IMG/VR virus record: IMGVR_UViG_3300020477_001475 | Location: 44,475 to 108,474 of that record | DNA: 64,000 nucleotides | Source of the DNA: a virus | Reading direction: 5' to 3' (one strand) | Shown: one piece after another, positions 35,410-45,210 of the stretch | Position numbering within the stretch: position 1 is the first letter of the stretch | How the letters are laid out: each line of letters starts with the position of its first letter | Notes under the pieces: model-generated | The model's database searches: none | What the model was told of the DNA's origin: nothing | Seen by the model: only the letters and a program-made list of their open reading frames with translations | Position numbers and translations under genes: made by a program

Positions 35410-36786
35410 TTAATTAATCTTCTTTAATTTTGGTAATTTAATTTTCTTATGTTCTGGTTGTTTCATATCAATATTTTCCATATGTTTGTCTAAAATTTCG
35501 CCGAGTTTTTCAGTCATATGTTTATGTGTAAATTTACTATGATTCTTATTCATGAGTTTAAGTGCATTTGTTTTAAAATCAAAACTATTTTTAAATGCAT
35601 ATCTCATAGCATCTTTTGCCTGCGTTTCATCAACAGTAAACCACTTACTTTCTGGTATAATTATATTTTCCCATACTGCTGACTCTGGTACATTATTTAA
35701 TGTACCTTGTAATAAAATACAATTAGCTGGATCTAAAAAATCTACTTGACCACTCCAACCAGATGCTATAACAGGTAGTCCAGCCATAGTAGCTTCTTGT
35801 AATGGTCTACCATAACCTTCACCATGAGTAAAAGAAAGCATAGTTTTTATTTTTGGGTGATTATATAAACTATTCATTTCACTATCTGTCAAATCACCAT
35901 GTAACAAATAAATATTTGGTAAATTCCAATCACTTGGAAATTGATTTTTAATATTATTTATTTTCGAAATGATACTCTCTTTGTCAATTACACTAAAAGT
36001 AGCTCCACTGGTTTTTAATACAATAGCTGGTTGTTTTTTCTGATTAGCAAATGTTTCATAAAATAATTTAATCATTCTACCAACATCTTTTCTATCTTCA
36101 CCATAATTACCTTTTATCCAATGGCCTACAAATAAAAATGCAAAATCTTCTTTTACTATAGAATTAATATCATCTAATACATTTTTATCCATTTCATCAA
36201 TTTTTAATTGTTTGTATATAGAATCATCAGATCCTTCGAACAAAACTTCCATTGGTTTTTCGAGTTTTAATTCACCAACTTTATGATTACCACCAGTAGG
36301 TAATTTTTCCAATTTATCAAAAGCTGTATCAACAAAAGCTTTTTTAGAATGGTTAGATGGTACAATTAACATATCCATTCTATTACACCCTTCCAACCAT
36401 TGTTGTGATACAGCTGTTGTTTCTATACCAGCTGTTATACCAATATTAAAAAATTTACCAATGGGTTGAAATTCATTTGGTATTCTAACATCTATGTAAA
36501 TATCTGGTGAATTATGCCCAGAAATAAGATTAGGATCCACTACTATTGATTCAGATACAATAAGATCTTTACCATCTCTTAAATTCAAAGCATTTCGTGG
36601 ACAATTTCCCCACCGTACATCAAATAATTTAATATTAAATTTATTTAAAAGTCTTAATGAATGAAAAATATCTCTAGCATGTTCACCATAACCACTTCTA
36701 CTAGTGAATGGTCCAGTTATAACAACAGATGGTCTATTTTTTATACTCATACTACCTCCAATGTATATTTTTCTTTCGGTTTCCAT
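35410..36786 (-). CDS. Glycosyltransferase family 4 (GT-B)
   Basis: SRSGYG, RKDVG, GEGYGRPLQEA, PVIASGWSG. Confidence 0.85.
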   Translation of the reverse strand: METERKIYIGGSMSIKNRPSVVITGPFTSRSGYGEHARDIFHSLRLLNKFNIKLFDVRWGNCPRNALNLRDGKDLIVSESIVVDPNLISGHNSPDIYIDVRIPNEFQPIGKFFNIGITAGIETTAVSQQWLEGCNRMDMLIVPSNHSKKAFVDTAFDKLEKLPTGGNHKVGELKLEKPMEVLFEGSDDSIYKQLKIDEMDKNVLDDINSIVKEDFAFLFVGHWIKGNYGEDRKDVGRMIKLFYETFANQKKQPAIVLKTSGATFSVIDKESIISKINNIKNQFPSDWNLPNIYLLHGDLTDSEMNSLYNHPKIKTMLSFTHGEGYGRPLQEATMAGLPVIASGWSGQVDFLDPANCILLQGTLNNVPESAVWENIIIPESKWFTVDETQAKDAMRYAFKNSFDFKTNALKLMNKNHSKFTHKHMTEKLGEILDKHMENIDMKQPEHKKIKLPKLKKIN

Positions 36787-38102
36787 TTTTCAAACACGGT
36801 ATCCATAGATGTAATAAAATTATCAGACATTTTTTCCGATGTCATACCTTCTTTAATAACAAATTCTCTACCTTTTTTCCCAGCTTCTTTTCTTTCATCT
36901 GGTGTTTTGTCATACCAATATTTCATAGCTTCACCAGTTTCATCCCACCTACACCTATCATCAAAAATGTATGGAGTAACTGGTGATCCCATCAATGATA
37001 TTGTAGATGGAAATACAGTTTTTACCCATTCACCATGTTCTTGATATTTACCATTATGATTAGATCCCCATTCACCGATATAATCATTTTCTGTGAGATA
37101 TTCACCATCTTCATTTTTAAATCCACATTGGTCTTGTAATCCACCTGTAACATTAATAATAGTTGGAGTACCTGCCATAAGTGATTCACATGTAGCCAAT
37201 CCAAATCCTTCATTGGATGCTATATTTATAGTAACATCACATGAATTATATAAAAGATTTAATTCGTTGTCATTTAACTTAACTTCCGTAAATTTTATAT
37301 TATAGTTAGGACATATATCTCTATGTATGGCTCCTAAATCTGTACCATTTTCATCAACAATTGGTGTATGCATAACCAATATACATTTATCGGCTTCATC
37401 TTTAGGTAACATATCACAAAAATGTTTAAATGCTAATATCACATCACCTGGCATTTTCCTTCTAATATTTCTATTACAAAATAATATCTTAAAATTATAA
37501 TTATTTATATCCAATTTCGTTTCAAATTGAGTTAATCTCAAATCAGATTTATCTATACTGTGATAATTATCGGCATCTACTCCATGTGGAACATATGTTA
37601 TTTGCCAATCTTCATATTCTGGGACTACTCGTTTATTTATACCATAAGTTTGTTTTGAAATCGCCATCAATAAATCAGAACTTCTGTAATAATTTCTATT
37701 ATACAATGGATCTGGTAAATCATCCCATATATTATAATAAAAAATAGGAATTTGTGTTCTTACTTCATGTTCGATGTTATACAACCAAATCCAAAATCTT
37801 GGATCCGTGTAATGAAGTATAGCATCTGGTTTTTCAAGTTTAATTATTTCAAATAATCTATCAGCATCACCATAACCGCTAACTGGATAAAGTTTTAAAG
37901 ATCCACCTTTAGGAATTTTTATTCTTTCATCACCATTTATATTTAGTATTTGACCATGTTCTGGATGTTGTATAGCCCCAGCTAATTGTATCCAATCATA
38001 TTTATGTATAGTACCTCTAACAATTTCAAACGACATCCTAGCTACACCAGATGTCATTCTAAGATCATCGGATAATAATAATATTTTTTTTCTTTTTGAC
38101 AT
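36747..38102 (-). CDS. Glycosyltransferase family 4 (GT-B)
   Basis: NRNIRRK, NEGFGLATCESLMAGTP, TGGLQDQ. Confidence 0.85.
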   Translation of the reverse strand: MSKRKKILLLSDDLRMTSGVARMSFEIVRGTIHKYDWIQLAGAIQHPEHGQILNINGDERIKIPKGGSLKLYPVSGYGDADRLFEIIKLEKPDAILHYTDPRFWIWLYNIEHEVRTQIPIFYYNIWDDLPDPLYNRNYYRSSDLLMAISKQTYGINKRVVPEYEDWQITYVPHGVDADNYHSIDKSDLRLTQFETKLDINNYNFKILFCNRNIRRKMPGDVILAFKHFCDMLPKDEADKCILVMHTPIVDENGTDLGAIHRDICPNYNIKFTEVKLNDNELNLLYNSCDVTINIASNEGFGLATCESLMAGTPTIINVTGGLQDQCGFKNEDGEYLTENDYIGEWGSNHNGKYQEHGEWVKTVFPSTISLMGSPVTPYIFDDRCRWDETGEAMKYWYDKTPDERKEAGKKGREFVIKEGMTSEKMSDNFITSMDTVFEKWKPKEKYTLEVV

Positions 38103-38129
38103 ACATAACCTTTATTTTAACGATATTTA

Positions 38130-38336
38130 CTAAAAACTACTACCAGACATTAGAAGTTCATCTGTAATTTTTATTTTATCTCTAAAGTTATCATCATCAC
38201 TTATATATAATAATATACTTCTATTGACCAACTTTTGCAAATTTATATCATCATCCAGACTTATATGCCTAAATTCATTGTATAAATTTTCGATTATCTT
38301 TACAGATGTTAATTTTGTTTTACATTCTATACTCAT
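38130..38336 (-). CDS. Small putative DNA-binding protein (ribbon-helix-helix-like)
   Basis: LTSVKI..LY..LQKLVNRSI strand-helix-helix pattern. Confidence 0.45.
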   Translation of the reverse strand: MSIECKTKLTSVKIIENLYNEFRHISLDDDINLQKLVNRSILLYISDDDNFRDKIKITDELLMSGSSF

Positions 38337-38377
38337 ATATATACATATATATAAAATACAGAAAACAACTACTTTTT

Positions 38378-38785
38378 TTAATAAATTATTAAAGTTTTTT
38401 TATTAAATTTTTCGGCATATTTTAATGTAGATTCTGTACCACTCGTGCTTATGCCCTTTGGAATAAATGCAACTATATAATCACTAGTTCCAGCAATTAT
38501 CTTATTTCTAACATGATAATTCTTTACATGATAAGGCTTTCCATATCTAGATTCAGATAATGGGCAATATAAATTATGAGGAAAATGATCAGGTGGATAT
38601 TCTTCATATTGTAAACCCAATTCAAGAGCGTATTTCTTAGCGTATTTATCAGCCCCATCTTTACAACCACCACTTACGATTGTAGTATCTTCACCATGTT
38701 CTTGCTTCAATTTAAAAATAAAATCTTTTATTTTCTTTTTATTTTCATATTTACGACTGCCAATTATAGCTATTTTCATTAACAA
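38378..38785 (-). CDS. SLOG/DprA-like protein (YspA/DUF2493 type)
   Basis: IAIIGSR, IVSGGCKDGAD, RNKII, GTEST. Confidence 0.75.
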   Translation of the reverse strand: MLMKIAIIGSRKYENKKKIKDFIFKLKQEHGEDTTIVSGGCKDGADKYAKKYALELGLQYEEYPPDHFPHNLYCPLSESRYGKPYHVKNYHVRNKIIAGTSDYIVAFIPKGISTSGTESTLKYAEKFNKKTLIIY

Positions 38786-38866
38786 TTACCATTATTGAAA
38801 AGTAAAAACATGGCCAACATTATCAATTTATCTAAAATCCACAATGATATCAATATAGTCAATTTT

Positions 38867-39217
38867 TTATCTATTCCTATTTTCATTTTTTTTATCTATC
38901 CTTTTTATTTGTTTATAAATATTTTTATAATATTCCAAACCATCTAAAATATTACCTTCATATTTATACCTCCACCCACATTTATCACCATTATTTATAA
39001 CAAAAAAATTATAATTTATTATATCACCATTTTTATACGATTTATTTATCATATAATCATATTTTTTTACAAATTTATTAGTACTTCCATTCAACCCAAC
39101 TATATTCAATTCAAAATCTCTATTTTTGTAAAAAGATTTTAAAAAACTAACTACATTCTCTTCTTCACTTAATATATCTTCTATGTTAAGTAATAATGAA
39201 TAAACATGTCTACTCAA
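38867..39217 (-). CDS. Hypothetical protein
   Basis: 116-aa ORF abutting the upstream nuclease gene. Confidence 0.5.
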   Translation of the reverse strand: MSRHVYSLLLNIEDILSEEENVVSFLKSFYKNRDFELNIVGLNGSTNKFVKKYDYMINKSYKNGDIINYNFFVINNGDKCGWRYKYEGNILDGLEYYKNIYKQIKRIDKKNENRNR

Positions 39218-40078
39218 TTAAATTATACCTTCTTTACAATATTCAGTTTGATTAAATTCACAAAATCTACAAGCGTTTTTACTCGGCGTGGCGTGCAGAG
39301 CATCGGCCGAATAACTACCATCATTGGCAAACGCTTCATCTATAAACCTATTCAATTTTTTACCTATCTTGTTCATAGAAACCTTACCACTGGCAGGTGC
39401 AAACTTCTGAAATCTCTTTTGTGGAAAATCCACATTTTCCCACAACTTTCTTTTCAATATCAAATATTCAATATCTATTCTATCTATGGGATGATTATAT
39501 TGTTTAGAATAAAATTGTTTATATAACAATAATTGTGATGTTTTATCAAAATCCTTTTTCATCCATTTATTCCAACCTTTTGTGGATGTTTTCAAATCAA
39601 TTATCTTTATTGAATCTGTTGGTTTATGCCTTAACACCACATCAAGATAACCAACCATTCTAATATTATTCTTTAATTCCATATCTATTGGAACTTCACA
39701 ACCAATTAATTCCCATTTATTTTTGAAAAAATATTCACCCCGTTTCTTCCTAAAAAAATCAAGTATTTCAATACCATCATCAAAAAATTCTGATAATTGT
39801 TCTTTTGTACATGGTGGTTTACCATCATTTTCTTCAGCTTTTTTAAATTCATTTATCATTTCTTTTTGTAACAATGCTGGTAAATCAATTTCATTGGCCT
39901 TTTTCACACTTTCACCATACATCACATCAAGATAATGTTGTATTGTTTCGTGCATTGCTGTTCCAAATACCAAATGTATATTTGATTCTGATACGGATAT
40001 TTCATCCACATATCTTAGTTTCCAATGCATTGGGCATTGGCTATACATCGATAATTGACTGTATGATATTTTATTCAT
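39218..40078 (-). CDS. PD-(D/E)XK RecB/Cas4-like nuclease
   Basis: SYSQL..CP, GTAMHE, GYLD..IIDLKT, QLLLY, CRFCEF..C. Confidence 0.85.
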   Translation of the reverse strand: MNKISYSQLSMYSQCPMHWKLRYVDEISVSESNIHLVFGTAMHETIQHYLDVMYGESVKKANEIDLPALLQKEMINEFKKAEENDGKPPCTKEQLSEFFDDGIEILDFFRKKRGEYFFKNKWELIGCEVPIDMELKNNIRMVGYLDVVLRHKPTDSIKIIDLKTSTKGWNKWMKKDFDKTSQLLLYKQFYSKQYNHPIDRIDIEYLILKRKLWENVDFPQKRFQKFAPASGKVSMNKIGKKLNRFIDEAFANDGSYSADALHATPSKNACRFCEFNQTEYCKEGII

Positions 40079-40358
40079 TTTTGCCTACCATTCTATGATA
40101 TGGTTTTTTATAATAATGTGAAATAAATGTACTAATTTCTTCCATATCTAATTTTCTTCTTAAATTATTTTCTAATCTTGTATATGGACAATCTAATCTG
40201 TTTAAAGCTAAATGCATTATCCACGCTGATAGTGGTAATGCTATCCAAATAGGTTCATTGATAAATAATAAAGGAACACTTAATGTTATAACCCAAAGCC
40301 CAATATGATGTGTAACTACGGTAAATACAAACAATAATCTATAAAATGTTCTATTCAT
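40071..40358 (-). CDS. Small membrane protein (DUF2784-like)
   Basis: Two hydrophobic segments, CPYTRLENNLR. Confidence 0.55.
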   Translation of the reverse strand: MNRTFYRLLFVFTVVTHHIGLWVITLSVPLLFINEPIWIALPLSAWIMHLALNRLDCPYTRLENNLRRKLDMEEISTFISHYYKKPYHRMVGKNE

Positions 40359-41028
40359 CTTTCTCCTTTGGGTAAGGTAATATTTTATATTTTAAATTTT
40401 TCATCATATCCTTTTTTTCCTTTTTATTTCCCATTAAATACAAATATCTATATTTTCCATGTAATTTTTTAATTTCGTATTGAACTCCCATTTTTTTCAA
40501 TTTATCTTTACTACGAGTACCATACCTTTGATTCATAGTTCTGGGATGTACTTTTTTACCATCAATAATATACCAAGTATCTTCAGTACTAGTTCCACAA
40601 TACAACCAATTGGTTGCTTGATATATTTTTCCAAAATGACCTTGTTCTGGATCGGCAAAAGATACTAATATCTTTATATCAGGATGATTTTTCTTTATAT
40701 ATTTTATACTTTGACCTATACAATAACTTTCCATATTCTTACCAGCCCAATCAAAACTAAACAACCTAACTAATTCCCAATATTTTCCAGGAAGACTATC
40801 TTTCATAGTTGACGATGCACTTTGACCATAAACTAAAACTGCATTCAATTTCTTTTCTACATAAAATCCCAAACATAATTCAGATGCTGGAAATGCATGA
40901 CTATAATGATTTTTAATTATTATACTTTTAGCTAAATTGGATGGTATTCGTTCCATTTCAATATTATTCTTATCTAAAGTATCCATTTCTACTTCTGATG
41001 TAGGATCACCATCCCAGAAATTATTCAT
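40351..41028 (-). CDS. Mom-like GNAT DNA-modification protein
   Basis: HYSH, ELVRLF, SFADPEQGHFGKIYQATNWLYCG. Confidence 0.75.
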   Translation of the reverse strand: MNNFWDGDPTSEVEMDTLDKNNIEMERIPSNLAKSIIIKNHYSHAFPASELCLGFYVEKKLNAVLVYGQSASSTMKDSLPGKYWELVRLFSFDWAGKNMESYCIGQSIKYIKKNHPDIKILVSFADPEQGHFGKIYQATNWLYCGTSTEDTWYIIDGKKVHPRTMNQRYGTRSKDKLKKMGVQYEIKKLHGKYRYLYLMGNKKEKKDMMKNLKYKILPYPKEKDE

Positions 41029-41039
41029 AATTTTAATCT

Positions 41040-41798
41040 CTATAAAATATTAGAATTATTGTCAACAACAACTTTTTTTATTTTCAATTCATTATTACCA
41101 GTATTTTTAGGATAATCCATAGACGGATGTTTTAAAGATTTTATAAATTTTTTCTTTTCTTTTTTTGTACCTAAAAAATAAACATATCTGTGTTTACGTG
41201 GATCTTCTTTCAACCAAAATGTATGTCCTATCTTGTCTTTCAACTTTTCCATGTTATTAGTACCATACATAGCAAAAATAGTTCTGGAATGTATCCAATC
41301 ACCATCCTCTTCCAACCTTAATAACCAAGAATCACAATATCTAATTTTATCCCCTTGATATACCCAATTAGTTGCTTGATAAATACCACCCAAATGACCT
41401 TCTTTAGGATCTGCATAAGATAATAAAGCTTTAATGGATTTATCATTTGTTTTTAACCATTCAAAAGTCCTACTAATAAAAGATGATTCTATATTTTTAC
41501 CATAACCATCATGAATAAATAACCGTGTTAATTCTAATACATTCTTATTTTCCAATTCACTGGAAATAGATTGTGCAGCCAACCTACCAACAGGATAACC
41601 ATAAACAGCAACACCAATTAGTTTTTCTTCCTTTTCATCAAAAAATGCATGATCATTACCAGTTTCATAAAAAAGACCCAATGCATAACGACAACTTGTC
41701 CACGCATGAGAATAATGATATTTTTCAATCATTTTTTTACCTATATTTTTAGGTATAGATTTAACCTTTAATTTTTTTATATCTACATATTTTTCCAT
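41040..41798 (-). CDS. Mom-like GNAT DNA-modification protein (tandem paralog)
   Basis: HYSH, ELTRLF, SYADPKEGHLGGIYQATNWVYQG, KHRYVY. Confidence 0.75.
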   Translation of the reverse strand: MEKYVDIKKLKVKSIPKNIGKKMIEKYHYSHAWTSCRYALGLFYETGNDHAFFDEKEEKLIGVAVYGYPVGRLAAQSISSELENKNVLELTRLFIHDGYGKNIESSFISRTFEWLKTNDKSIKALLSYADPKEGHLGGIYQATNWVYQGDKIRYCDSWLLRLEEDGDWIHSRTIFAMYGTNNMEKLKDKIGHTFWLKEDPRKHRYVYFLGTKKEKKKFIKSLKHPSMDYPKNTGNNELKIKKVVVDNNSNIL

Positions 41799-41803
41799 AA
41801 TAA

Positions 41804-41838
41804 AATATACAACCTTTTTGTAATATAAAACAAGCTTT
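41804..41838 (-). promoter_or_regulatory. Conserved sigma70-like phage promoter
   Basis: GCTTGTTTTATATTACAAAAAGGTTGTATATT; same motif at ~49300, 51870, 53050, 63160. Confidence 0.6.
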
Positions 41839-41843
41839 TTATG

Positions 41844-41991
41844 CTGGAGCCGTAGGAGTCGAACCTACACGAAGAAGTTAGCCTTAGTTCAAGTGTGCAC
41901 CTAAGTAGTGGTCAACCCATTAAACCATGTTTATCCTTTTATCTTCACCCCCGAGACAAGAGGGCGTGTCTGCCAATTCCACCAGACTCCA
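41844..41991 (-). tRNA. Atypical tRNA-like RNA (148 nt), GUC triplet in the anticodon loop, 66-nt structured insertion in the variable arm
   Basis: Acceptor TGGAGTC/GGCTCCA+G; class II-type D arm GTG-GAATTGGCAGA-CAC; CCCTC-TTGTCTC-GGGGG; GAAGA/TCTTC V stem; T arm GTAGG-TTCGACT-CCTAC; no encoded CCA. Confidence 0.75.
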
Positions 41992-41997
41992 ATGTTA

Positions 41998-42498
41998 TTA
42001 TTTATCTAATAACCAAGATGATGATTGTATTTTGTCACCACCTATTCCCCAAATCATTTCTACACCTAAATCCTGGCAAACCTGCATTTCAGGTACATTA
42101 TCTGATGTTCTATCCCCACCGTTAGCAAAAAACAATTTATATTCTTTTTCACCGGTTGGGTTTGAATCTAAATAATCATAGTTAAATCCTTGACCACTAT
42201 AAATGGTTCTAACTTGTTTGATTAAACTACAAGCCGTATCATCTTTATCATCAAAGGCTAACACTTGGTTGACATATTTAAAACCTTCAAGTATTTCTTT
42301 TCTTTCTTTGAAATCCATAAATGGTTTTTCTTTTTTACGAGTTAACCAATCATCTGAATTTAATCCCACTATAACTTGATGTCCTAACCAACTTGCTTCT
42401 CTAAACATTCTTAAATGACCTTTATGTACAGGATCAAATCCACCACTCATTATGATGACGGATTTTCTCCAGTCTTTATTCCATGTCGTTTGTTTCAC
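41998..42498 (-). CDS. HxGH cytidylyltransferase (RfaE/TagD-like)
   Basis: SGGFDPVHKGH, GLNSD, FANGGDR, SSS. Confidence 0.85.
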   Translation of the reverse strand: MKQTTWNKDWRKSVIIMSGGFDPVHKGHLRMFREASWLGHQVIVGLNSDDWLTRKKEKPFMDFKERKEILEGFKYVNQVLAFDDKDDTACSLIKQVRTIYSGQGFNYDYLDSNPTGEKEYKLFFANGGDRTSDNVPEMQVCQDLGVEMIWGIGGDKIQSSSWLLDK

Positions 42499-43322
42499 TT
42501 AGTTAACCCCGACATTTCCATAGCTCTTACCATTCTCGTTACACCAATTCCACCACCGAATCTAGGGAAGAAATCGTGTGATAAGTATTCTTCTAATTCT
42601 TTTTCAACTCTTTCTTTTGTGAAATGGTTGTAAAGTAATTGAGCATACTCACCGTCTGAAATTGAATGGAAGTTTTCTCTCATTTCATCAACATTAACTG
42701 CTCTTTCAGCTGAACCAATTGTTTCTTGACCATGCATGATAACATCAATCTTATTGTAAAGATTTTTGTCATCATCATTTTGTTTCATGTTCCAGAATGG
42801 ATGTGTTCTATGTGGAAAATGTGATAAAAATGTACAAGTACCTAATTCTTTACTCATAGCTTCTTCTTCTGCATAATCTAATTCATCAACACTATATTTT
42901 TCACATGCTTCATCATATTTGATTTTACCATGTTCAGAACCAAAACCTAAAAACTCTAATAATTCTTCTTCCATTTCTTCTAATTTGTCCATACCACCGT
43001 GAGACTCAAACTCGAACATTGGGAATAATTTCTCATGACGACCTTCAACAGGATTTGGTTCATTTCTATAACTCGTTGATACACAAAATACACCTTTTAC
43101 TGTTGGATTCTTTAATAATTCATATTCAAGCCACATTTGTCCAGTCTGCGGTAACGGCCAGTTTACACCATTAAACACATATTGTGATATGGTTTTTGGA
43201 TCTTCACAAGCCGCTAATATAGACCTTCTTGATTGTGTTGGAACTTCTATAAATCCCTTTGCTTCTCTAAAGTATTGTCTCATTTTATAAACTGCTGCAT
43301 CAAATGCGAACATATCTTTCAT
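42495..43322 (-). CDS. Class II Asp/Asn-tRNA-synthetase-like catalytic domain lacking the anticodon-binding domain
   Basis: GFIEVPT (motif 1), YRNE..RH..FPMFEFE (motif 2), ETIGSAER, PRFGGGIGVTR (motif 3); only 275 aa. Confidence 0.8.
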   Translation of the reverse strand: MKDMFAFDAAVYKMRQYFREAKGFIEVPTQSRRSILAACEDPKTISQYVFNGVNWPLPQTGQMWLEYELLKNPTVKGVFCVSTSYRNEPNPVEGRHEKLFPMFEFESHGGMDKLEEMEEELLEFLGFGSEHGKIKYDEACEKYSVDELDYAEEEAMSKELGTCTFLSHFPHRTHPFWNMKQNDDDKNLYNKIDVIMHGQETIGSAERAVNVDEMRENFHSISDGEYAQLLYNHFTKERVEKELEEYLSHDFFPRFGGGIGVTRMVRAMEMSGLTK

Positions 43323-43333
43323 TTATCTTCTCC

Positions 43334-43801
43334 TTAACATCCTATATAAAATATAATCAAACCTAAAACACATACACCCCAATCAAATACATTTGAACGA
43401 GGTAAACTTATGTTCATCATTTTCCATGGTGCTTTACTTGCGAAAGGATCATCAAGACACACATAATTCAATGCTCTTTCATATACAAAATAACCAACCA
43501 TCCAACTACCTAACCAAATAAATAATAAATCGTAAAAACTAGTTCCAGCCCACATACCAAGTGTATATGCTGATAAGATACAACCTACAGTACCTATATT
43601 TTCACCTAATCTCCAAGCATGATAATCAAGAATACCTACCCCACTAGGTTTACCCTTTTTACTAATACTACCAAATATTAATTTATTTGATTTTCTTTGT
43701 TTTGCATTTGCCCATGTATATCCTTCAGTACACCCTTCACTAAACCAATATACAACCATAAAAAATAAAAAACATAATTCTAATAACATATTAATCTCCA
43801 C
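43334..43801 (-). CDS. Hypothetical membrane protein
   Basis: Several hydrophobic segments. Confidence 0.55.
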   Translation of the reverse strand: MEINMLLELCFLFFMVVYWFSEGCTEGYTWANAKQRKSNKLIFGSISKKGKPSGVGILDYHAWRLGENIGTVGCILSAYTLGMWAGTSFYDLLFIWLGSWMVGYFVYERALNYVCLDDPFASKAPWKMMNISLPRSNVFDWGVCVLGLIIFYIGC

Positions 43802-44786
43802 ATATTGTTTCTGTTAATTTAAAACAAACCTTATAAGGATCACAATTAGCAGAAGGTCTTCTATCTTCAAGATAACCTTTACCATCTTTTGCTACTTGCC
43901 AAGGAACTCTAACTGATGCTCCTCTATCCGAAACTCCCCAATGAAATCTATTAATTGGACAAGTTTCATGCAATCCAGTGAGTCGTCTTTCATTACCATG
44001 ACCATAAACACCAATATGTTCTTGATGTTTATTTTCTAATTTCTGTATAGCTTCATGTATAACTTTATCACCACCATCTTCTCTCATAGCCTTTGTTGAG
44101 AAGTTTGTATGAGCACCAGCACCATTCCAATCACCTTCAACAGGTTTTGGGTCAAGTGATACTTCTATATCGTTTTTAGCACAAACCTTTTCCAATATCC
44201 AACGAGCAACCCAAATATCATCTGATATTACTATTGGGTCATCGGCACCAATCTGATACTCCCATTGTCCAAGCATAACTTCTGAATTAATACCACTAAT
44301 CTTGATACCAGCTTTAATACAATAATCCATATGTCTGCGAGCAATCCAATCGCCTTTATTTCTACCACAATAGTAATCACCTTGTGGTGCAGGCTCACCT
44401 TCTATTGGCCATCCCAATGGTCTACCATTTTCATACAAAGTATATTCTTGCTCTATACCAACCCATACATCTTGCTCTCTATGTGTTTGGTATAACTCTT
44501 CCAATTCAAACCTATGATTAGTCGGATGTGGATGGTCATGGACATCCCAAACTTCACATAATACCAAAAATGAATCGTGTTTTTCCATAGGATTTTCATA
44601 TAATCTAACAGGTTTTAAAACACAATCAGAGTTAGCTCCTTCAGCTTGATTTGTTGATGAACCATCAAACCCCCATACAGGACAATCAGTTATACTCCTA
44701 CCAAATTCTTCTACAATTTTTGTTTTACTACGCAATTGACTTGTTGGTTCAGTTCCATCAATCCATATGTATTCTAATTTAGTCAT
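43791..44786 (-). CDS. glnII: Glutamine synthetase type II
   Basis: EYIWIDG, FDGSSTNQA, EQEY, EVMLGQWEYQ, DWNGAGAHTNFST, RLTGLHET, GYLEDRRP. Confidence 0.92.
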   Translation of the reverse strand: MTKLEYIWIDGTEPTSQLRSKTKIVEEFGRSITDCPVWGFDGSSTNQAEGANSDCVLKPVRLYENPMEKHDSFLVLCEVWDVHDHPHPTNHRFELEELYQTHREQDVWVGIEQEYTLYENGRPLGWPIEGEPAPQGDYYCGRNKGDWIARRHMDYCIKAGIKISGINSEVMLGQWEYQIGADDPIVISDDIWVARWILEKVCAKNDIEVSLDPKPVEGDWNGAGAHTNFSTKAMREDGGDKVIHEAIQKLENKHQEHIGVYGHGNERRLTGLHETCPINRFHWGVSDRGASVRVPWQVAKDGKGYLEDRRPSANCDPYKVCFKLTETICGD

Positions 44787-44787
44787 A

Positions 44788-45210
44788 TTATTTCCCCCAA
44801 ACTTTTTCTTTCACTAATTGTGCTATTATAGCGTAATTTGCTAAGTCCATAAAGGTATCCATTAATGATTCATTTTCAGGTTCTTGATTGTTTATAACAA
44901 TTTGTTGAAATCTTTGCATCTTATCATTCATTCTGAACCATAATCCTGTAAGTGCTAATTTAACTTCTTCTTCTGTTTCAAGGTTACTTCCAACTGATAT
45001 ATTTTTTGGACCATAATCTTTTTGTTTTTTACAGAATAATTCCCATTGATTAAATTGGATGTCTTGAAACATTTTTGTTGTATCTGGATATTTTTCTTCT
45101 ATAAAATTTATAGGGTTAGTGTCATCCCATCCCATATTATTATTCATTATAACACCATTTAATGAACTTTTTTTAGAAGCTTCTTTTATAACTTTAATTT
45201 TACTTTTCAT
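44788..45210 (-). CDS. DUF1599 / nucleotide-modification-associated domain protein
   Basis: KKQKDYG..RMNDKMQR..ESLMDTFMDLANYAIIA. Confidence 0.75.
   Translation of the reverse strand: MKSKIKVIKEASKKSSLNGVIMNNNMGWDDTNPINFIEEKYPDTTKMFQDIQFNQWELFCKKQKDYGPKNISVGSNLETEEEVKLALTGLWFRMNDKMQRFQQIVINNQEPENESLMDTFMDLANYAIIAQLVKEKVWGK

What the first reader, a model, noticed from the sequence alone, without database searches (positions are those of the whole stretch)
41844..41991. 148-nt tRNA-like RNA with a giant branched variable arm
All four cloverleaf arms pair well, but the V-arm stem (GAAGA/TCTTC) encloses 66 nt (41876-41941) containing two more hairpins (TGGTT..GACCA and CTTAG..CTAAG). The body is Leu/Ser-type (3-bp D stem, long arm, G73), yet the loop triplet is GUC (Asp, 41955-41957) with a pyrimidine at position 37, so it is unlikely to be a normal decoder. 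Possible roles: decoy for host anticodon nucleases, dedicated aminoacyl carrier, or an analogue of the long tRNA-like stable RNAs in the T4 tRNA cluster.
Basis: partly seen in the sequence, partly recalled or inferred. Interest (0 to 1): 0.78.

Follow-up and report, generated by a model that had tools for sequence, protein, structure and literature searches.

The report
Phage copy of giant-armed tRNA-like RNA
The 148-base element is a real, conserved RNA shaped like an aspartate tRNA with a 78-base folded extra arm; it belongs to an uncatalogued RNA family of Bacteroidota bacteria and their phages that keeps the signals for charging with aspartate but not those for reading codons, so it probably works off the ribosome.

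Summary
A minus-strand 148-nt tRNA-like gene lies at 41844-41991, with a 7/5 acceptor-T helix, 3-bp D stem, GUC triplet, U37, C38, G73 and a 78-nt variable domain. ARAGORN and Rfam 15 do not recognise it.

It is not a one-off. I found 234 distinct relatives in phage contigs, metagenomes and Bacteroidota genomes (mostly Chitinophagales and Saprospiraceae). Covariation is strong: 97% of cells pair and 23 of 35 pairs show compensatory changes.

The arm is three stacked helices plus a conserved apical hairpin.

In unbiased samples U1-A72, G73, U35, C36 and C38 are invariant and G34 nearly so. That is the AspRS identity set plus the GatCAB determinant. U33 and purine-37 are not kept.

In bacteria the RNA pairs with an AsnC-type regulator. 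Here it rides in a mobile cassette with an AsnRS-like catalytic core whose relatives are fused to pyrimidine enzymes.

The adjacent Mom genes are a coincidence of an insertion hotspot. All 15 Mom relatives lack the RNA.

Best reading: an off-ribosome aspartyl-acceptor RNA. Its function is untested.

This scan has met the same family before on other DNA, both bacterial and phage. New here is its link to the AsnRS-like cassette.

The parts
41844..41991 (-). Whole tRNA-like RNA gene, 148 nt (U1 = 41991, G73 = 41844).
   Evidence: Covariance model R1 scores it at 139.2 bits, E 1e-41. It aligns end to end with 59 relatives. It is the only copy in the 108-kb record.
41985..41991 (-). Acceptor stem 5' strand. 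It pairs with 41845-41851. The first pair is U1-A72.
   Evidence: The helix is 99.8% paired and 4 of 7 pairs covary. U1-A72 is present in 234 of 234 copies found with the exact 17-mer and in 31 of 31 unbiased copies.
41966..41982 (-). D arm: a 3-bp stem and an 11-nt Leu-type loop with G18 G19.
   Evidence: Two of the 3 pairs covary. The 5' part matches annotated phage tRNA-Leu genes.
41948..41964 (-). Anticodon arm. The 7-nt loop is at 41953-41959, with G34 U35 C36 at 41957-41955, U37 at 41954 and C38 at 41953.
   Evidence: U35, C36 and C38 are present in 31 of 31 unbiased copies and G34 in 29 of 31. U33 and R37 are not conserved. The stem covaries in the unbiased set.
41870..41947 (-). Variable domain, 78 nt.
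- Helix V1: 41943-41946 with 41871-41874.
- Helix V2: 41936-41938 with 41875-41877.
- Helix V3: 41921-41927 with 41885-41891.
- Conserved internal loop: 41928-41935 and 41878-41884.
   Evidence: V1 is 100% paired, V2 94% and V3 91%. Thirteen of the 14 pairs show changes on both sides. The window satisfies every pair.
41906..41919 (-). Apical hairpin carrying the conserved GGGUYGACCAC motif.
   Evidence: It is 85.9% paired against 28-70% in slid controls, with 27 cells changed on both sides against 0-7. The motif was found independently of the search pattern. It is absent from the short forms of the family.
41845..41868 (-). T arm (5 bp, loop UUCGACU) and acceptor stem 3' strand. G73 follows at 41844.
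   Evidence: The T stem is 100% paired and 4 of 5 pairs covary. G73 is present in all copies.
42495..43322 (-). AsnRS-like class II catalytic core, 275 aa. No anticodon-binding domain was detected.
   Evidence: - Pfam PF00152, E 8e-17.
- A family profile ranks AsnRS catalytic domains first in the PDB.
- The model (pLDDT 90.5) is nearest AsnRS, TMq 0.75-0.77.
- Relatives are fused to DHODH or OMP decarboxylase.
- It travels with the RNA in L495 and L487.
41998..42498 (-). Cytidylyltransferase-like nucleotidyltransferase, 166 aa, a member of the cassette.
   Evidence: PF01467, E 1.6e-14. It is 88-89% identical in L495 and L487, where it lies after the RNA instead of before it.
43334..44786 (-). 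GlnII-type glutamine synthetase (43791-44786) and an unknown 155-aa ORF (43334-43801), at the upstream end of the inserted block.
   Evidence: NF041605 scores 459.9 bits, below the 500-bit cut-off. GlnII lies beside the aaRS core also in L013 and L028. Both genes are absent from L495.
40351..41798 (-). Two Mom-family paralogs directly downstream. They belong to the phage backbone, not to the RNA cassette.
   Evidence: PF25680, E 1e-49 and 2e-50. Fifteen of 15 loci with relatives of Mom1 lack the RNA, the aaRS core, GlnII and the cytidylyltransferase.

Best explanation
The element is a phage-borne member of a large, publicly uncatalogued family of tRNA-shaped RNAs. The family is found in Bacteroidota (mainly Chitinophagales and Saprospiraceae) and in their phages.

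**What it is.** It has a complete tRNA scaffold that should allow tRNA-type end processing and CCA addition. It also has the five strong aspartate identity determinants (G73, G34, U35, C36, C38) and an invariant U1-A72 first pair. Its 78-nt structured domain replaces the variable arm.

**How it most likely works.** It is an aspartate acceptor used away from the ribosome.
1. Host AspRS charges it through the anticodon loop and G73.
2. The pyrimidine at position 37 (with non-U33 in some relatives) and the giant arm keep it out of decoding.
3. The bound aspartate is then processed or handed on within aspartate/asparagine-derived metabolism.

Two versions of the last step are open:
- Amidation to asparagine by GatCAB, for which U1-A72 is the known bacterial determinant.
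- Use by, or regulation of, the AsnRS-like enzyme that travels with it in this phage. Fusions of that enzyme tie it to pyrimidine synthesis.

**Shown:** family membership, the structure, the conservation pattern and the gene contexts.

**Inferred:** charging, exclusion from the ribosome, and the downstream chemistry.
For: **Family.**
- 17 viral contigs, at least 120 bacterial genome contigs and at least 120 metagenome contigs share the architecture.
- These give 234 distinct sequences.

**Structure.**
- 97.4% of cells pair, against 47-60% in slid controls.
- 23 of 35 pairs are compensatory, and 0 of 500 shuffles reach the observed values.
- The apical hairpin is also supported.

**Conservation pattern in copies found without using the anticodon arm**.
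- U1-A72, G73, U35, C36 and C38 are each present in 31 of 31 copies, and G34 in 29 of 31.
- Position 33 is G or C in 5 copies. Position 37 is a pyrimidine in 26.
- The five strong Asp determinants are G73, G34, U35, C36 and C38 (PMC9976931).
- U1-A72 is the bacterial GatCAB determinant (PMC1635274 and PMC2811023).

**Redundancy with a decoder.** Phage L200 has the RNA inside a 17-tRNA array that already holds tRNA-Asp GUC and tRNA-Asn GUU.

**Bacterial context.**
- An AsnC-type regulator lies divergent, about 150 nt away, in 82 of about 120 loci.
- Close orthologs of the regulator occur in 16 of 151 sampled genomes. Fifteen of these are the 15 RNA-positive genomes.

**Phage context.**
- The RNA, the AsnRS-like core and the cytidylyltransferase move together: 88-93% protein identity against 57-67% for backbone genes.
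- The RNA is 146 of 148 identical.
- It occupies the slot that long-arm GUU tRNAs with U37 hold in 14 of 80 other aaRS-core loci and in P-SSM2.

**Hosts.** The four cultured hosts examined have AsnRS, GlnRS and GatB together.
Against: - There is no expression, end-mapping or aminoacylation evidence.
- G1-C72 is strictly conserved in bacterial tRNA-Asp and helps place the 3' end in AspRS, so U1-A72 may lower charging.
- A supernumerary D-loop nucleotide blocks amidation of tRNA-Asp by GatCAB, and this RNA has a large D loop.
- GatB is present in 126 of 151 sampled Bacteroidota genomes, so its presence in all 15 RNA-positive genomes is not discriminating.
- The hosts have other routes to Asn: AsnB-type enzymes in 3 of 4 and AsnA in 1 of 4.
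- asnA is not adjacent to the regulator in any locus examined.
- The regulator scores below NCBIfam's AsnC equivalog cut-off (157 against 227 bits), so its ligand is unknown.
- No homolog of the AsnRS-like core was found in the four host genomes, and 17 phage loci carry the RNA without it. The enzyme is therefore not a general partner.
- Release of free Asn from a carrier RNA would need an unknown deacylase.
Confidence: 0.45

Rival explanations
1. Regulatory or decoy RNA that is bound but not used as a carrier. It would mimic tRNA-Asp in order to do one of three things: titrate or sense AspRS, act as an allosteric ligand of the AsnRS-like enzyme, or absorb an anticodon nuclease or a tRNA-modifying enzyme that reads U33-G34-U35.
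For: - The features kept are those read by proteins, and the decoding features are lost.
- The conserved apical motif and internal loop look like protein or RNA docking sites.
- tRNA-like mimics that regulate aaRS genes through anticodon-loop mimicry are established (PMC9976931).
- In bacteria it is paired with a transcription factor.
Against: - The whole acceptor end (7-bp stem, U1-A72, G73 followed by C) is invariant or covaries like that of an aminoacylatable tRNA. An anticodon-arm mimic would not need this.
- A decoy against phage-defence nucleases would not be expected as a regulated cellular gene in 28 of 151 sampled genomes of the class.
Confidence: 0.2
2. A genuine but specialised decoding tRNA-Asp. 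It would be a phage- or stress-specific isoacceptor whose altered loop and arm make it resistant to host tRNA-targeting defences, or give it condition-specific use.
For: - It lies in tRNA arrays in some phages (L200; next to tRNA-Met in L199, L205 and L208).
- The GUC triplet is kept in 29 of 31 unbiased copies.
- The window copy itself has U33.
Against: - Position 33 is G or C in 5 of 31 copies, and position 37 is a pyrimidine in 26 of 31.
- Arms of 35 to more than 150 nt have no precedent in decoders.
- It is redundant with a canonical tRNA-Asp in L200.
- Bacterial tRNA-Asp strictly keeps G1-C72, whereas every copy here has U1-A72.
- If GatCAB amidated it, decoding would put Asn at Asp codons.
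Confidence: 0.12
3. Dedicated aminoacyl donor for the two adjacent Mom-family enzymes. This would make a self-contained tRNA-dependent DNA hypermodification cassette: ligase, carrier RNA and transferases.
For: [quoted passage not shown]
- The RNA ends 45 nt upstream of Mom1, and the genes are co-oriented.
- The same adjacency is seen in L495 and L487.
- The region also holds DUF1599 and two glycosyltransferases.
Against: - All 15 loci found with Mom1 lack the RNA, the aaRS core, GlnII and the cytidylyltransferase. In most of them the local backbone is clampA-(DUF1599)-Mom-exonuclease.
- None of the 80 aaRS-core loci and none of the 17 giant-arm RNA loci has Mom nearby.
- L013 has GlnII and the aaRS core at the same hotspot without Mom.
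- L495 and L487 belong to the same lineage and are not independent.
- Cassette proteins are 88-93% identical while Mom1 is 57%, so the two have separate histories.
- Bacterial hosts keep the RNA without Mom.
Confidence: 0.07
4. Private substrate of the adjacent AsnRS-like core. The anticodon-blind enzyme would charge this RNA, and in other phages the long-arm GUU tRNAs, through the acceptor end. This would be a natural orthogonal pair.
For: - The RNA lies about 10 nt after the enzyme gene in L495 and L487.
- Unusual GUU tRNAs with U37 hold the same slot in 14 of 80 loci and in P-SSM2.
- The enzyme keeps a class II catalytic fold nearest AsnRS.
Against: - Relatives at 52-54% identity are fused to DHODH or OMP decarboxylase, which points to a metabolic role.
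- Most aaRS-core loci (66 of 80) show no such RNA within the fetched flanks.
- Seventeen phage loci and all bacterial loci carry the RNA without the enzyme.
- Charging a GUC RNA with Asn would be mistranslating if the RNA were decoded.
Confidence: 0.12
5. Decaying pseudo-tRNA, or a chance cloverleaf.
For: ARAGORN and Rfam do not call it. The single-sequence fold z-score is only -1.2.
Against: There are 234 distinct relatives with compensatory changes in every helix. The RNA is 146 of 148 identical between phages whose cassette proteins are about 89% identical.
Confidence: 0.01

Closest known systems
Bacterial class II tRNAs, especially tRNA-Leu (Rfam RF00005)
   Same: It has a 7/5 acceptor-T helix, a 3-bp D stem with the Leu-type D loop, G18 G19, the T loop, and an extra arm emerging between the anticodon and T arms. 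The 5' part matches annotated phage tRNA-Leu genes.
   Different: - The arm is 78 nt here, and 35 to more than 150 nt in the family, instead of about 13-21 nt. It has three stacked helices, conserved loops and an apical motif.
- It has an Asp-type loop with U37.
- It has G73 and U1-A72.
- It scores below the Rfam tRNA threshold (12.4 against 29 bits) and is not called by ARAGORN.
tRNA-Asn as cofactor of the indirect pathway (non-discriminating AspRS plus GatCAB)
   Same: It has U1-A72 and G73, and a G34-U35 anticodon loop readable by AspRS. In that pathway the amino acid is transformed while attached to the RNA (PMC1635274, PMC2811023, PMC2330236).
   Different: - The triplet is GUC, not GUU.
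- It has a class II body with a large D loop; an extra D-loop nucleotide is an antideterminant in tRNA-Asp.
- The product could not be used for decoding.
- The hosts have AsnRS.
- No transamidation has been shown.
Phage long-arm tRNA(GUU) downstream of the AsnRS-like core (for example in Prochlorococcus phage P-SSM2, where the gene is annotated 'tRNA ligase')
   Same: It holds the same slot after the same enzyme, and has the same Leu-type D arm and T arm, U37, and G73 followed by C. R1 scores these tRNAs at 60-80 bits.
   Different: Those tRNAs have GUU, an A38-type loop, a simple 13-25 nt arm and often A1-U72. The window RNA has GUC, C38, the 78-nt domain and U1-A72.
Non-proteinogenic tRNAs, such as the Staphylococcus tRNA-Gly species that feed cell-wall synthesis (own knowledge; Roberts 1972 is listed among the references of PMC13219725)
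   Same: The concept is the same: a tRNA kept for aminoacyl supply outside translation, with features that disfavour decoding.
   Different: Those are normal-sized tRNAs with subtle changes and a known acceptor pathway. Here the acceptor pathway is unknown and the RNA has a large extra domain.
tRNA-Sec and allo-tRNAs (PMC7609411)
   Same: They have a long extra arm, serve as a scaffold for tRNA-bound amino-acid conversion, and carry unusual anticodons on class II bodies.
   Different: They have 8/5, 9/4, 8/4 or 9/3 acceptor-T geometry and serine identity. This RNA is 7/5 with aspartate identity.
tmRNA and Y-RNA-like YrlA (tRNA-like domain plus an extra module)
   Same: A tRNA-like acceptor-T module is joined to a large non-tRNA domain.
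   Different: - This RNA has a full anticodon arm and D arm.
- It has G3-C70 rather than the alanine G3-U70.
- It has no conserved reading frame; the AUG is lost in the closest relatives.
- Rfam gives only an 8-bit T-arm match to tmRNA and nothing for the Y-RNA families.

Membership tests
Canonical tRNA (Rfam RF00005 / ARAGORN) | Cloverleaf with a 7-bp acceptor stem, a 5-bp T stem, the T loop, and G18 G19 in the D loop. | tested here: met
Canonical tRNA (Rfam RF00005 / ARAGORN) | Scores above the family threshold, or is called by a tRNA finder. | tested here: not met
   ARAGORN finds 0 genes in the window and in the genome. RF00005 scores 12.4 bits against a 29-bit threshold. There is no match at gathering score.
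Canonical tRNA (Rfam RF00005 / ARAGORN) | A decoding loop with U33 and a purine at position 37. | tested here: not met
   The window has U33 but U37. In the family, position 33 is G or C in 5 of 31 copies and position 37 is a pyrimidine in 26 of 31.
Canonical tRNA (Rfam RF00005 / ARAGORN) | A variable region of 4-5 nt (class I) or about 10-21 nt (class II). | tested here: not met
   It is 78 nt here. Family members are 106-228 nt in total length.
Giant-arm Asp-type tRNA-like RNA family (defined here by model R1; not in Rfam 15) | U1-A72 and G73. | tested here: met
   Present in the window. Present in 234 of 234 and 31 of 31 family copies.
Giant-arm Asp-type tRNA-like RNA family (defined here by model R1; not in Rfam 15) | G34 U35 C36 and C38 in a 7-nt loop. 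| tested here: met
   Window loop at 41953-41959.
Giant-arm Asp-type tRNA-like RNA family (defined here by model R1; not in Rfam 15) | Three stacked, covarying helices in the variable domain, with the conserved internal loop. | tested here: met
   The window forms all 14 pairs. The model scores it at 139 bits.
Giant-arm Asp-type tRNA-like RNA family (defined here by model R1; not in Rfam 15) | A divergent AsnC-type regulator next to the gene. | tested here: not met
   This is a feature of bacterial loci only (82 of about 120). No regulator gene lies beside the RNA in the window. The neighbours in the 17 other phage loci were screened only for the window's cassette genes.
Phage long-arm tRNA(GUU) partner of the AsnRS-like core | Lies just downstream of the AsnRS-like core gene. 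| tested here: met
   It lies about 10 nt after the gene in L495 and L487. In the window one gene (the cytidylyltransferase) intervenes.
Phage long-arm tRNA(GUU) partner of the AsnRS-like core | A GUU triplet with U37 and a simple 13-25 nt arm. | tested here: not met
   The window has GUC, C38 and a 78-nt domain. Only U37 is shared.
Aminoacyl donor of Mom-type DNA modification | Conserved co-occurrence with Mom genes. | tested here: not met
   None of the 15 Mom1-relative loci has the RNA. Neither the 80 aaRS-core loci nor the 17 RNA loci have Mom nearby.
Aminoacyl donor of Mom-type DNA modification | The charged RNA is accepted by the Mom enzyme. | not testable with these tools
   This needs biochemistry. 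Mu Mom is reported as selective for Gly-tRNA-Gly (PMC13219725).
tmRNA | Alanine identity (G3-U70), a tag reading frame and pseudoknots. | tested here: not met
   It has G3-C70. The candidate AUG is not conserved. Rfam matches only the T arm, at 8.3 bits against a 47-bit threshold.
tRNA-Sec / allo-tRNA | An acceptor-T helix of 13 or 12 bp in 8/5, 9/4, 8/4 or 9/3 geometry, with serine identity. | tested here: not met
   It has 7/5 geometry with covariation support and an Asp-type loop.

The most novel reading that the evidence does not exclude
The RNA is a dedicated cofactor. It would be a tRNA-shaped carrier on which aspartate, loaded by the ordinary AspRS, is converted off the ribosome. The product would be asparagine (made by GatCAB through U1-A72) or a pyrimidine precursor (made by the AsnRS-like enzyme). 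Bacteria would switch it on through an AsnC-type sensor. Phages would carry it, here together with the enzyme, as a portable RNA-dependent metabolic module.
Probability: 0.3. Interest if true: 0.9.

Novelty: new variant of a known kind. Interest (0 to 1): 0.7.

Why it matters
If the reading holds, this is a widespread tRNA derivative selected for charging but not for decoding.

- **Reach.** It is present in 28 of 151 sampled genomes of its bacterial class, and in several phage lineages.
- **Invisible to standard tools.** It carries a large, conserved extra domain that no tRNA finder or Rfam model sees.
- **Biology.** It would add a dedicated, regulated RNA to the short list of tRNAs that work outside translation. 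It would also make testable the long-standing question of why many bacteria keep GatCAB alongside AsnRS and GlnRS.
- **This phage.** The RNA's neighbours should be read as a mobile metabolic cassette, not as a Mom-dependent DNA-modification system.
- **New link.** It connects two RNA classes that had been seen separately: the giant-arm GUC RNAs of Bacteroidota, and the long-arm GUU tRNAs that follow the AsnRS-like enzyme in marine phages.

Tried and rejected
- **ARAGORN and Rfam.** Gathering and E up to 10 on the window, plus four bacterial loci and one phage locus. No family matched beyond an 8-bit T-arm hit.
- **Exact scan with the D-arm 18-mer.** It is unspecific, because it hits ordinary tRNA-Leu genes.
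- **Mom link.** Rejected as a conserved association.
- **'The RNA replaces asnA opposite asnC'.** Rejected. asnA is not next to the regulator or to its distant paralogs in any locus examined, and G003 has both asnA and the RNA at separate places.
- **GatB co-occurrence.** Uninformative at phylum level: 126 of 151 genomes have GatB and all 15 RNA-positive genomes do (P about 0.07), and the comparison is confounded by phylogeny.
- **Homolog of the AsnRS-like core in four host genomes.** Not found with this query.
- **Mosaic origin** (phage GUU-type body plus GUC-type arm). Only weakly supported: alignment scores out of 27 are 20 against 16 for the D-arm segment and 17 against 18 for the T-arm segment.
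No covariation support.
- **First-stage 'minigene' in the arm.** The AUG is not conserved.
- **Complex prediction.** Not used, because it takes no RNA partner.
Full report
**What is there.** The element reads as a tRNA on the minus strand. U1 is at 41991 and G73 at 41844. It has these parts:
- a 7-bp acceptor stem that starts with U1-A72;
- U8;
- a 3-bp D stem with an 11-nt loop of the bacterial tRNA-Leu type;
- a 5-bp anticodon stem with a 7-nt loop carrying G34 U35 C36 (41957-41955), U37 and C38;
- a 78-nt variable domain (41947-41870);
- a standard T arm;
- G73 followed by C, A, U, A, so no CCA is encoded.

It fills the gap between two minus-strand genes. It starts 6 nt after the stop codon of a cytidylyltransferase-like gene and ends 45 nt before the first of two Mom-family genes. 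No promoter-like or terminator-like excess marks it, so it is probably cut out of an operon transcript.

ARAGORN finds no tRNA in the window or in the 108-kb record. Rfam 15 gives nothing at gathering score and only an 8-bit T-arm match at E up to 10. The Rfam tRNA model reaches 12.4 bits against a threshold of 29. The single-sequence fold is not better than shuffles (z = -1.2), so the case rests on comparison.

**It belongs to a large family.**
- An exact scan with the 17-nt anticodon arm found 17 viral contigs with the same layout. They share motifs in the variable domain that were not part of the query.
- The same scan found at least 120 bacterial genome contigs, almost all Chitinophagales or Saprospiraceae, and at least 120 metagenome contigs.
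- I extracted 234 distinct full-length sequences of 109-228 nt. All have U1-A72 and G73.
- Neither Rfam nor ARAGORN recognises the bacterial copies.
- Three literature searches found no description of the family.

This scan's own notebook shows that earlier agents met the same family on other bacterial and phage DNA and read it much as I do. I treated those notes as leads and re-derived the points below myself.

**Structure.** A 60-sequence alignment (A1) gives a consensus with 35 pairs.
- 97.4% of cells pair, against 47-60% when partners are slid.
- 23 pairs have changes on both sides, in 288 cells, against 32-49 cells in slid controls.
- No shuffle out of 500 reaches the observed values.

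The variable domain is a rod of three helices:
- V1: 41943-41946 with 41871-41874;
- V2: 41936-41938 with 41875-41877;
- V3: 41921-41927 with 41885-41891.

A conserved internal loop separates V2 and V3. The rod is capped by an apical hairpin that holds the GGGUYGACCAC motif. That hairpin is 85.9% paired, with 27 double changes against 0-7 in controls. Many members insert further hairpins on either side of the apical one.

The window sequence forms every consensus pair. In the two closest relatives a G-to-A change turns a G-U of helix V3 into A-U and would break the proposed TGGTT/GACCA hairpin.

**What selection keeps.** The 17-mer scans force the anticodon arm to be identical, so I took copies found by other routes.
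- A 14-nt probe from the variable domain gave 9 members. Eight had the same arm and one had a compensatory stem change.
- Homology to the neighbouring regulator gave 13 copies.
- A covariance-model scan of 151 genomes of the class gave 31 copies in 28 genomes.

In those 31 copies:
- U1-A72, G73, U35, C36 and C38 are invariant, and G34 is present in 29. The two exceptions are tandem copies with a Glu-type UUC.
- Position 33 is G in 4 and C in 1.
- Position 37 is U in 24, C in 2 and G in 5.
- The anticodon stem covaries.

A review of tRNA identity states that aspartate identity rests mainly on five strong determinants: G73, G34, U35, C36 and C38. It also states that bacterial tRNA-Asp strictly keeps G1-C72 (PMC9976931). 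U1-A72 is the determinant that lets bacterial GatCAB amidate Asp-tRNA-Asn (PMC1635274, PMC2811023). The family therefore keeps what AspRS reads, and the base pair GatCAB reads, but not the two loop features that decoding needs. One phage (L200) carries the RNA inside a 17-tRNA array directly after canonical tRNA-Asp and tRNA-Asn genes, so it is not that phage's Asp decoder.

**Bacterial context.**
- In 82 of about 120 bacterial loci a 156-aa regulator lies divergent from the RNA, about 150 nt away.
- Its best NCBIfam match is AsnC (157-159 bits, below the 227-bit equivalog cut-off). Lrp and other paralog models score 65 bits or less.
- In a 151-genome sample of the phylum, close orthologs (50% identity or more) occur in 16 genomes. 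Fifteen of these are the 15 RNA-positive ones, and in 10 the two genes are adjacent and divergent.

The stronger idea that the RNA stands where asnA stands in E. coli failed. asnA is not next to the regulator or to its distant paralogs in any locus examined.

The four cultured carriers have AsnRS, GlnRS and GatB together. This recalls Deinococcus, Thermus and Bdellovibrio, which also encode AsnRS, GlnRS and GatCAB together (abstract of PMC4206432). But GatB is present in 126 of 151 sampled genomes, so its presence with the RNA says little. Three of the four carriers have AsnB-type enzymes and one has AsnA.

**Phage context.** Upstream of the RNA lie, in transcription order:
- DUF1599;
- a GlnII-type glutamine synthetase;
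- an unknown ORF;
- a 275-aa class II synthetase core with no anticodon-binding domain detected;
- the cytidylyltransferase-like gene.

The core has more than 596 relatives in viral contigs. In 14 of the 80 best loci, and in Prochlorococcus phage P-SSM2, a tRNA with a GUU triplet follows it. Two of these are ordinary 74-nt tRNA-Asn genes. Most of the rest have the same Leu-type D arm, a 13-25 nt extra arm, U37, and G73 followed by C. The model built from the giant-arm family scores those long-arm tRNAs at 60-80 bits.

Two metagenome contigs (L495, L487) are close relatives of the window cassette.
- The core, the cytidylyltransferase and DUF1599 are 88-93% identical, while Mom1, the exonuclease and the clamp-loader subunit are 57-67% identical.
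- The RNA is 146 of 148 identical.
- The order is core, then RNA, then cytidylyltransferase, with the RNA about 10 nt after the core.

So the cassette has moved as a unit, and in this lineage the giant-arm GUC RNA holds the slot that the GUU long-arm tRNA holds elsewhere. This link between the two RNA classes is what this window adds.

**What the 'synthetase' is.**
- A family profile ranks AsnRS catalytic domains first in the PDB (E 2e-11), then AspRS and LysRS.
- A confident model (pLDDT 90.5) is nearest AsnRS, with TMq 0.75-0.77.
- Following a lead from earlier notes, I confirmed that relatives at 52-54% identity over about 97% of the protein are fused to dihydroorotate dehydrogenase (at least 9 clusters) and, once, to OMP decarboxylase.

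This argues that the enzyme serves pyrimidine synthesis and is not a plain tRNA-charging enzyme. I found no homolog in four RNA-carrying bacteria, and 17 phage loci have the RNA without it. The RNA therefore does not depend on it in general.

**The Mom question.** Mu Mom uses Gly-tRNA-Gly to modify adenine in DNA (PMC13219725), so an aberrant tRNA next to two Mom genes is tempting. The comparative test goes against it.
- All 15 loci found with Mom1 lack the RNA, the core, GlnII and the cytidylyltransferase. In most of them the local backbone is clamp-loader subunit, optional DUF1599, Mom, exonuclease.
- No aaRS-core locus and no giant-arm RNA locus outside this lineage has Mom.
- L013 has GlnII and the core between the same backbone genes without Mom.

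The adjacency reflects a shared insertion hotspot.

**Conclusion.** The element is a real member of an undescribed tRNA-derived RNA family. My best reading (0.45) is an aspartate acceptor that works off the ribosome in Asp/Asn-derived metabolism. The step after charging is open.

Rival readings:
- a bound-but-not-charged regulator or decoy (0.2);
- a specialised decoder (0.12);
- a private substrate of the AsnRS-like core (0.12);
- a Mom donor (0.07);
- a pseudo-tRNA (0.01).

Noticed in passing
L001:4878-4963 (-), Prochlorococcus phage P-SSM2: An 86-nt long-arm tRNA-like gene scores 69.7 bits with R1 and lies 10 nt downstream of the 'tRNA ligase' CDS. The record places its 86-nt tRNA-Asn (PSSM2_199) about 2 kb away, inside a CDS. 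The locus-tag order fits the R1 position, so this is probably a coordinate slip in the record.
   Followed up: partly
window 42495-43322 (-); proteins P0004-P0014: Relatives of the AsnRS-like core at 52-54% identity are fused to dihydroorotate dehydrogenase (PF01180) or OMP decarboxylase (PF00215). This suggests an undescribed pyrimidine-pathway enzyme with a class II synthetase fold.
   Followed up: partly
window 41844-45210; L495:2010-4192; L487: The block DUF1599 / AsnRS-like core / RNA / cytidylyltransferase is 88-93% identical between phages whose flanking backbone genes are 57-67% identical. The gene order of the RNA and the cytidylyltransferase is swapped. The block looks like a recently transferred cassette.
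   Followed up: yes
L583:2113-2222 and 2335-2443 (genome G139); L622: Two tandem short copies (109-110 nt) of the family carry a Glu-type UUC triplet instead of GUC. They still have U37, C38, U1-A72 and G73.
   Followed up: no
window 41906-41919 (-): The 8-nt core of the apical loop motif is self-complementary in both its U and C variants. Two RNAs could therefore kiss or dimerise. This was not tested.
   Followed up: no
window 41920-41940 (-): The 'SD-AUG-GUU-UAA minigene' noted at the first stage is not conserved. The AUG reads AUA in L495 and L487 and is absent from the bacterial copies.
   Followed up: yes
window 35410-45210: Two glycosyltransferases, DUF1599 ('nucleotide modification associated') and two Mom paralogs lie within 10 kb, next to replication genes. 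This is probably a DNA-hypermodification island whose chemistry is unknown.
   Followed up: no
L200:1-2903: A phage tRNA array of 17 genes holds the giant-arm RNA (2035-2178) directly after tRNA-Asp and tRNA-Asn. In L199, L205 and L208 the RNA is followed within about 12 nt by a tRNA-Met.
   Followed up: partly
L317, L344, L372, L375, L377, L390, L574: Several bacterial genomes carry two tandem copies of the RNA 200-470 nt apart. In some pairs the copies are of different length classes.
   Followed up: no
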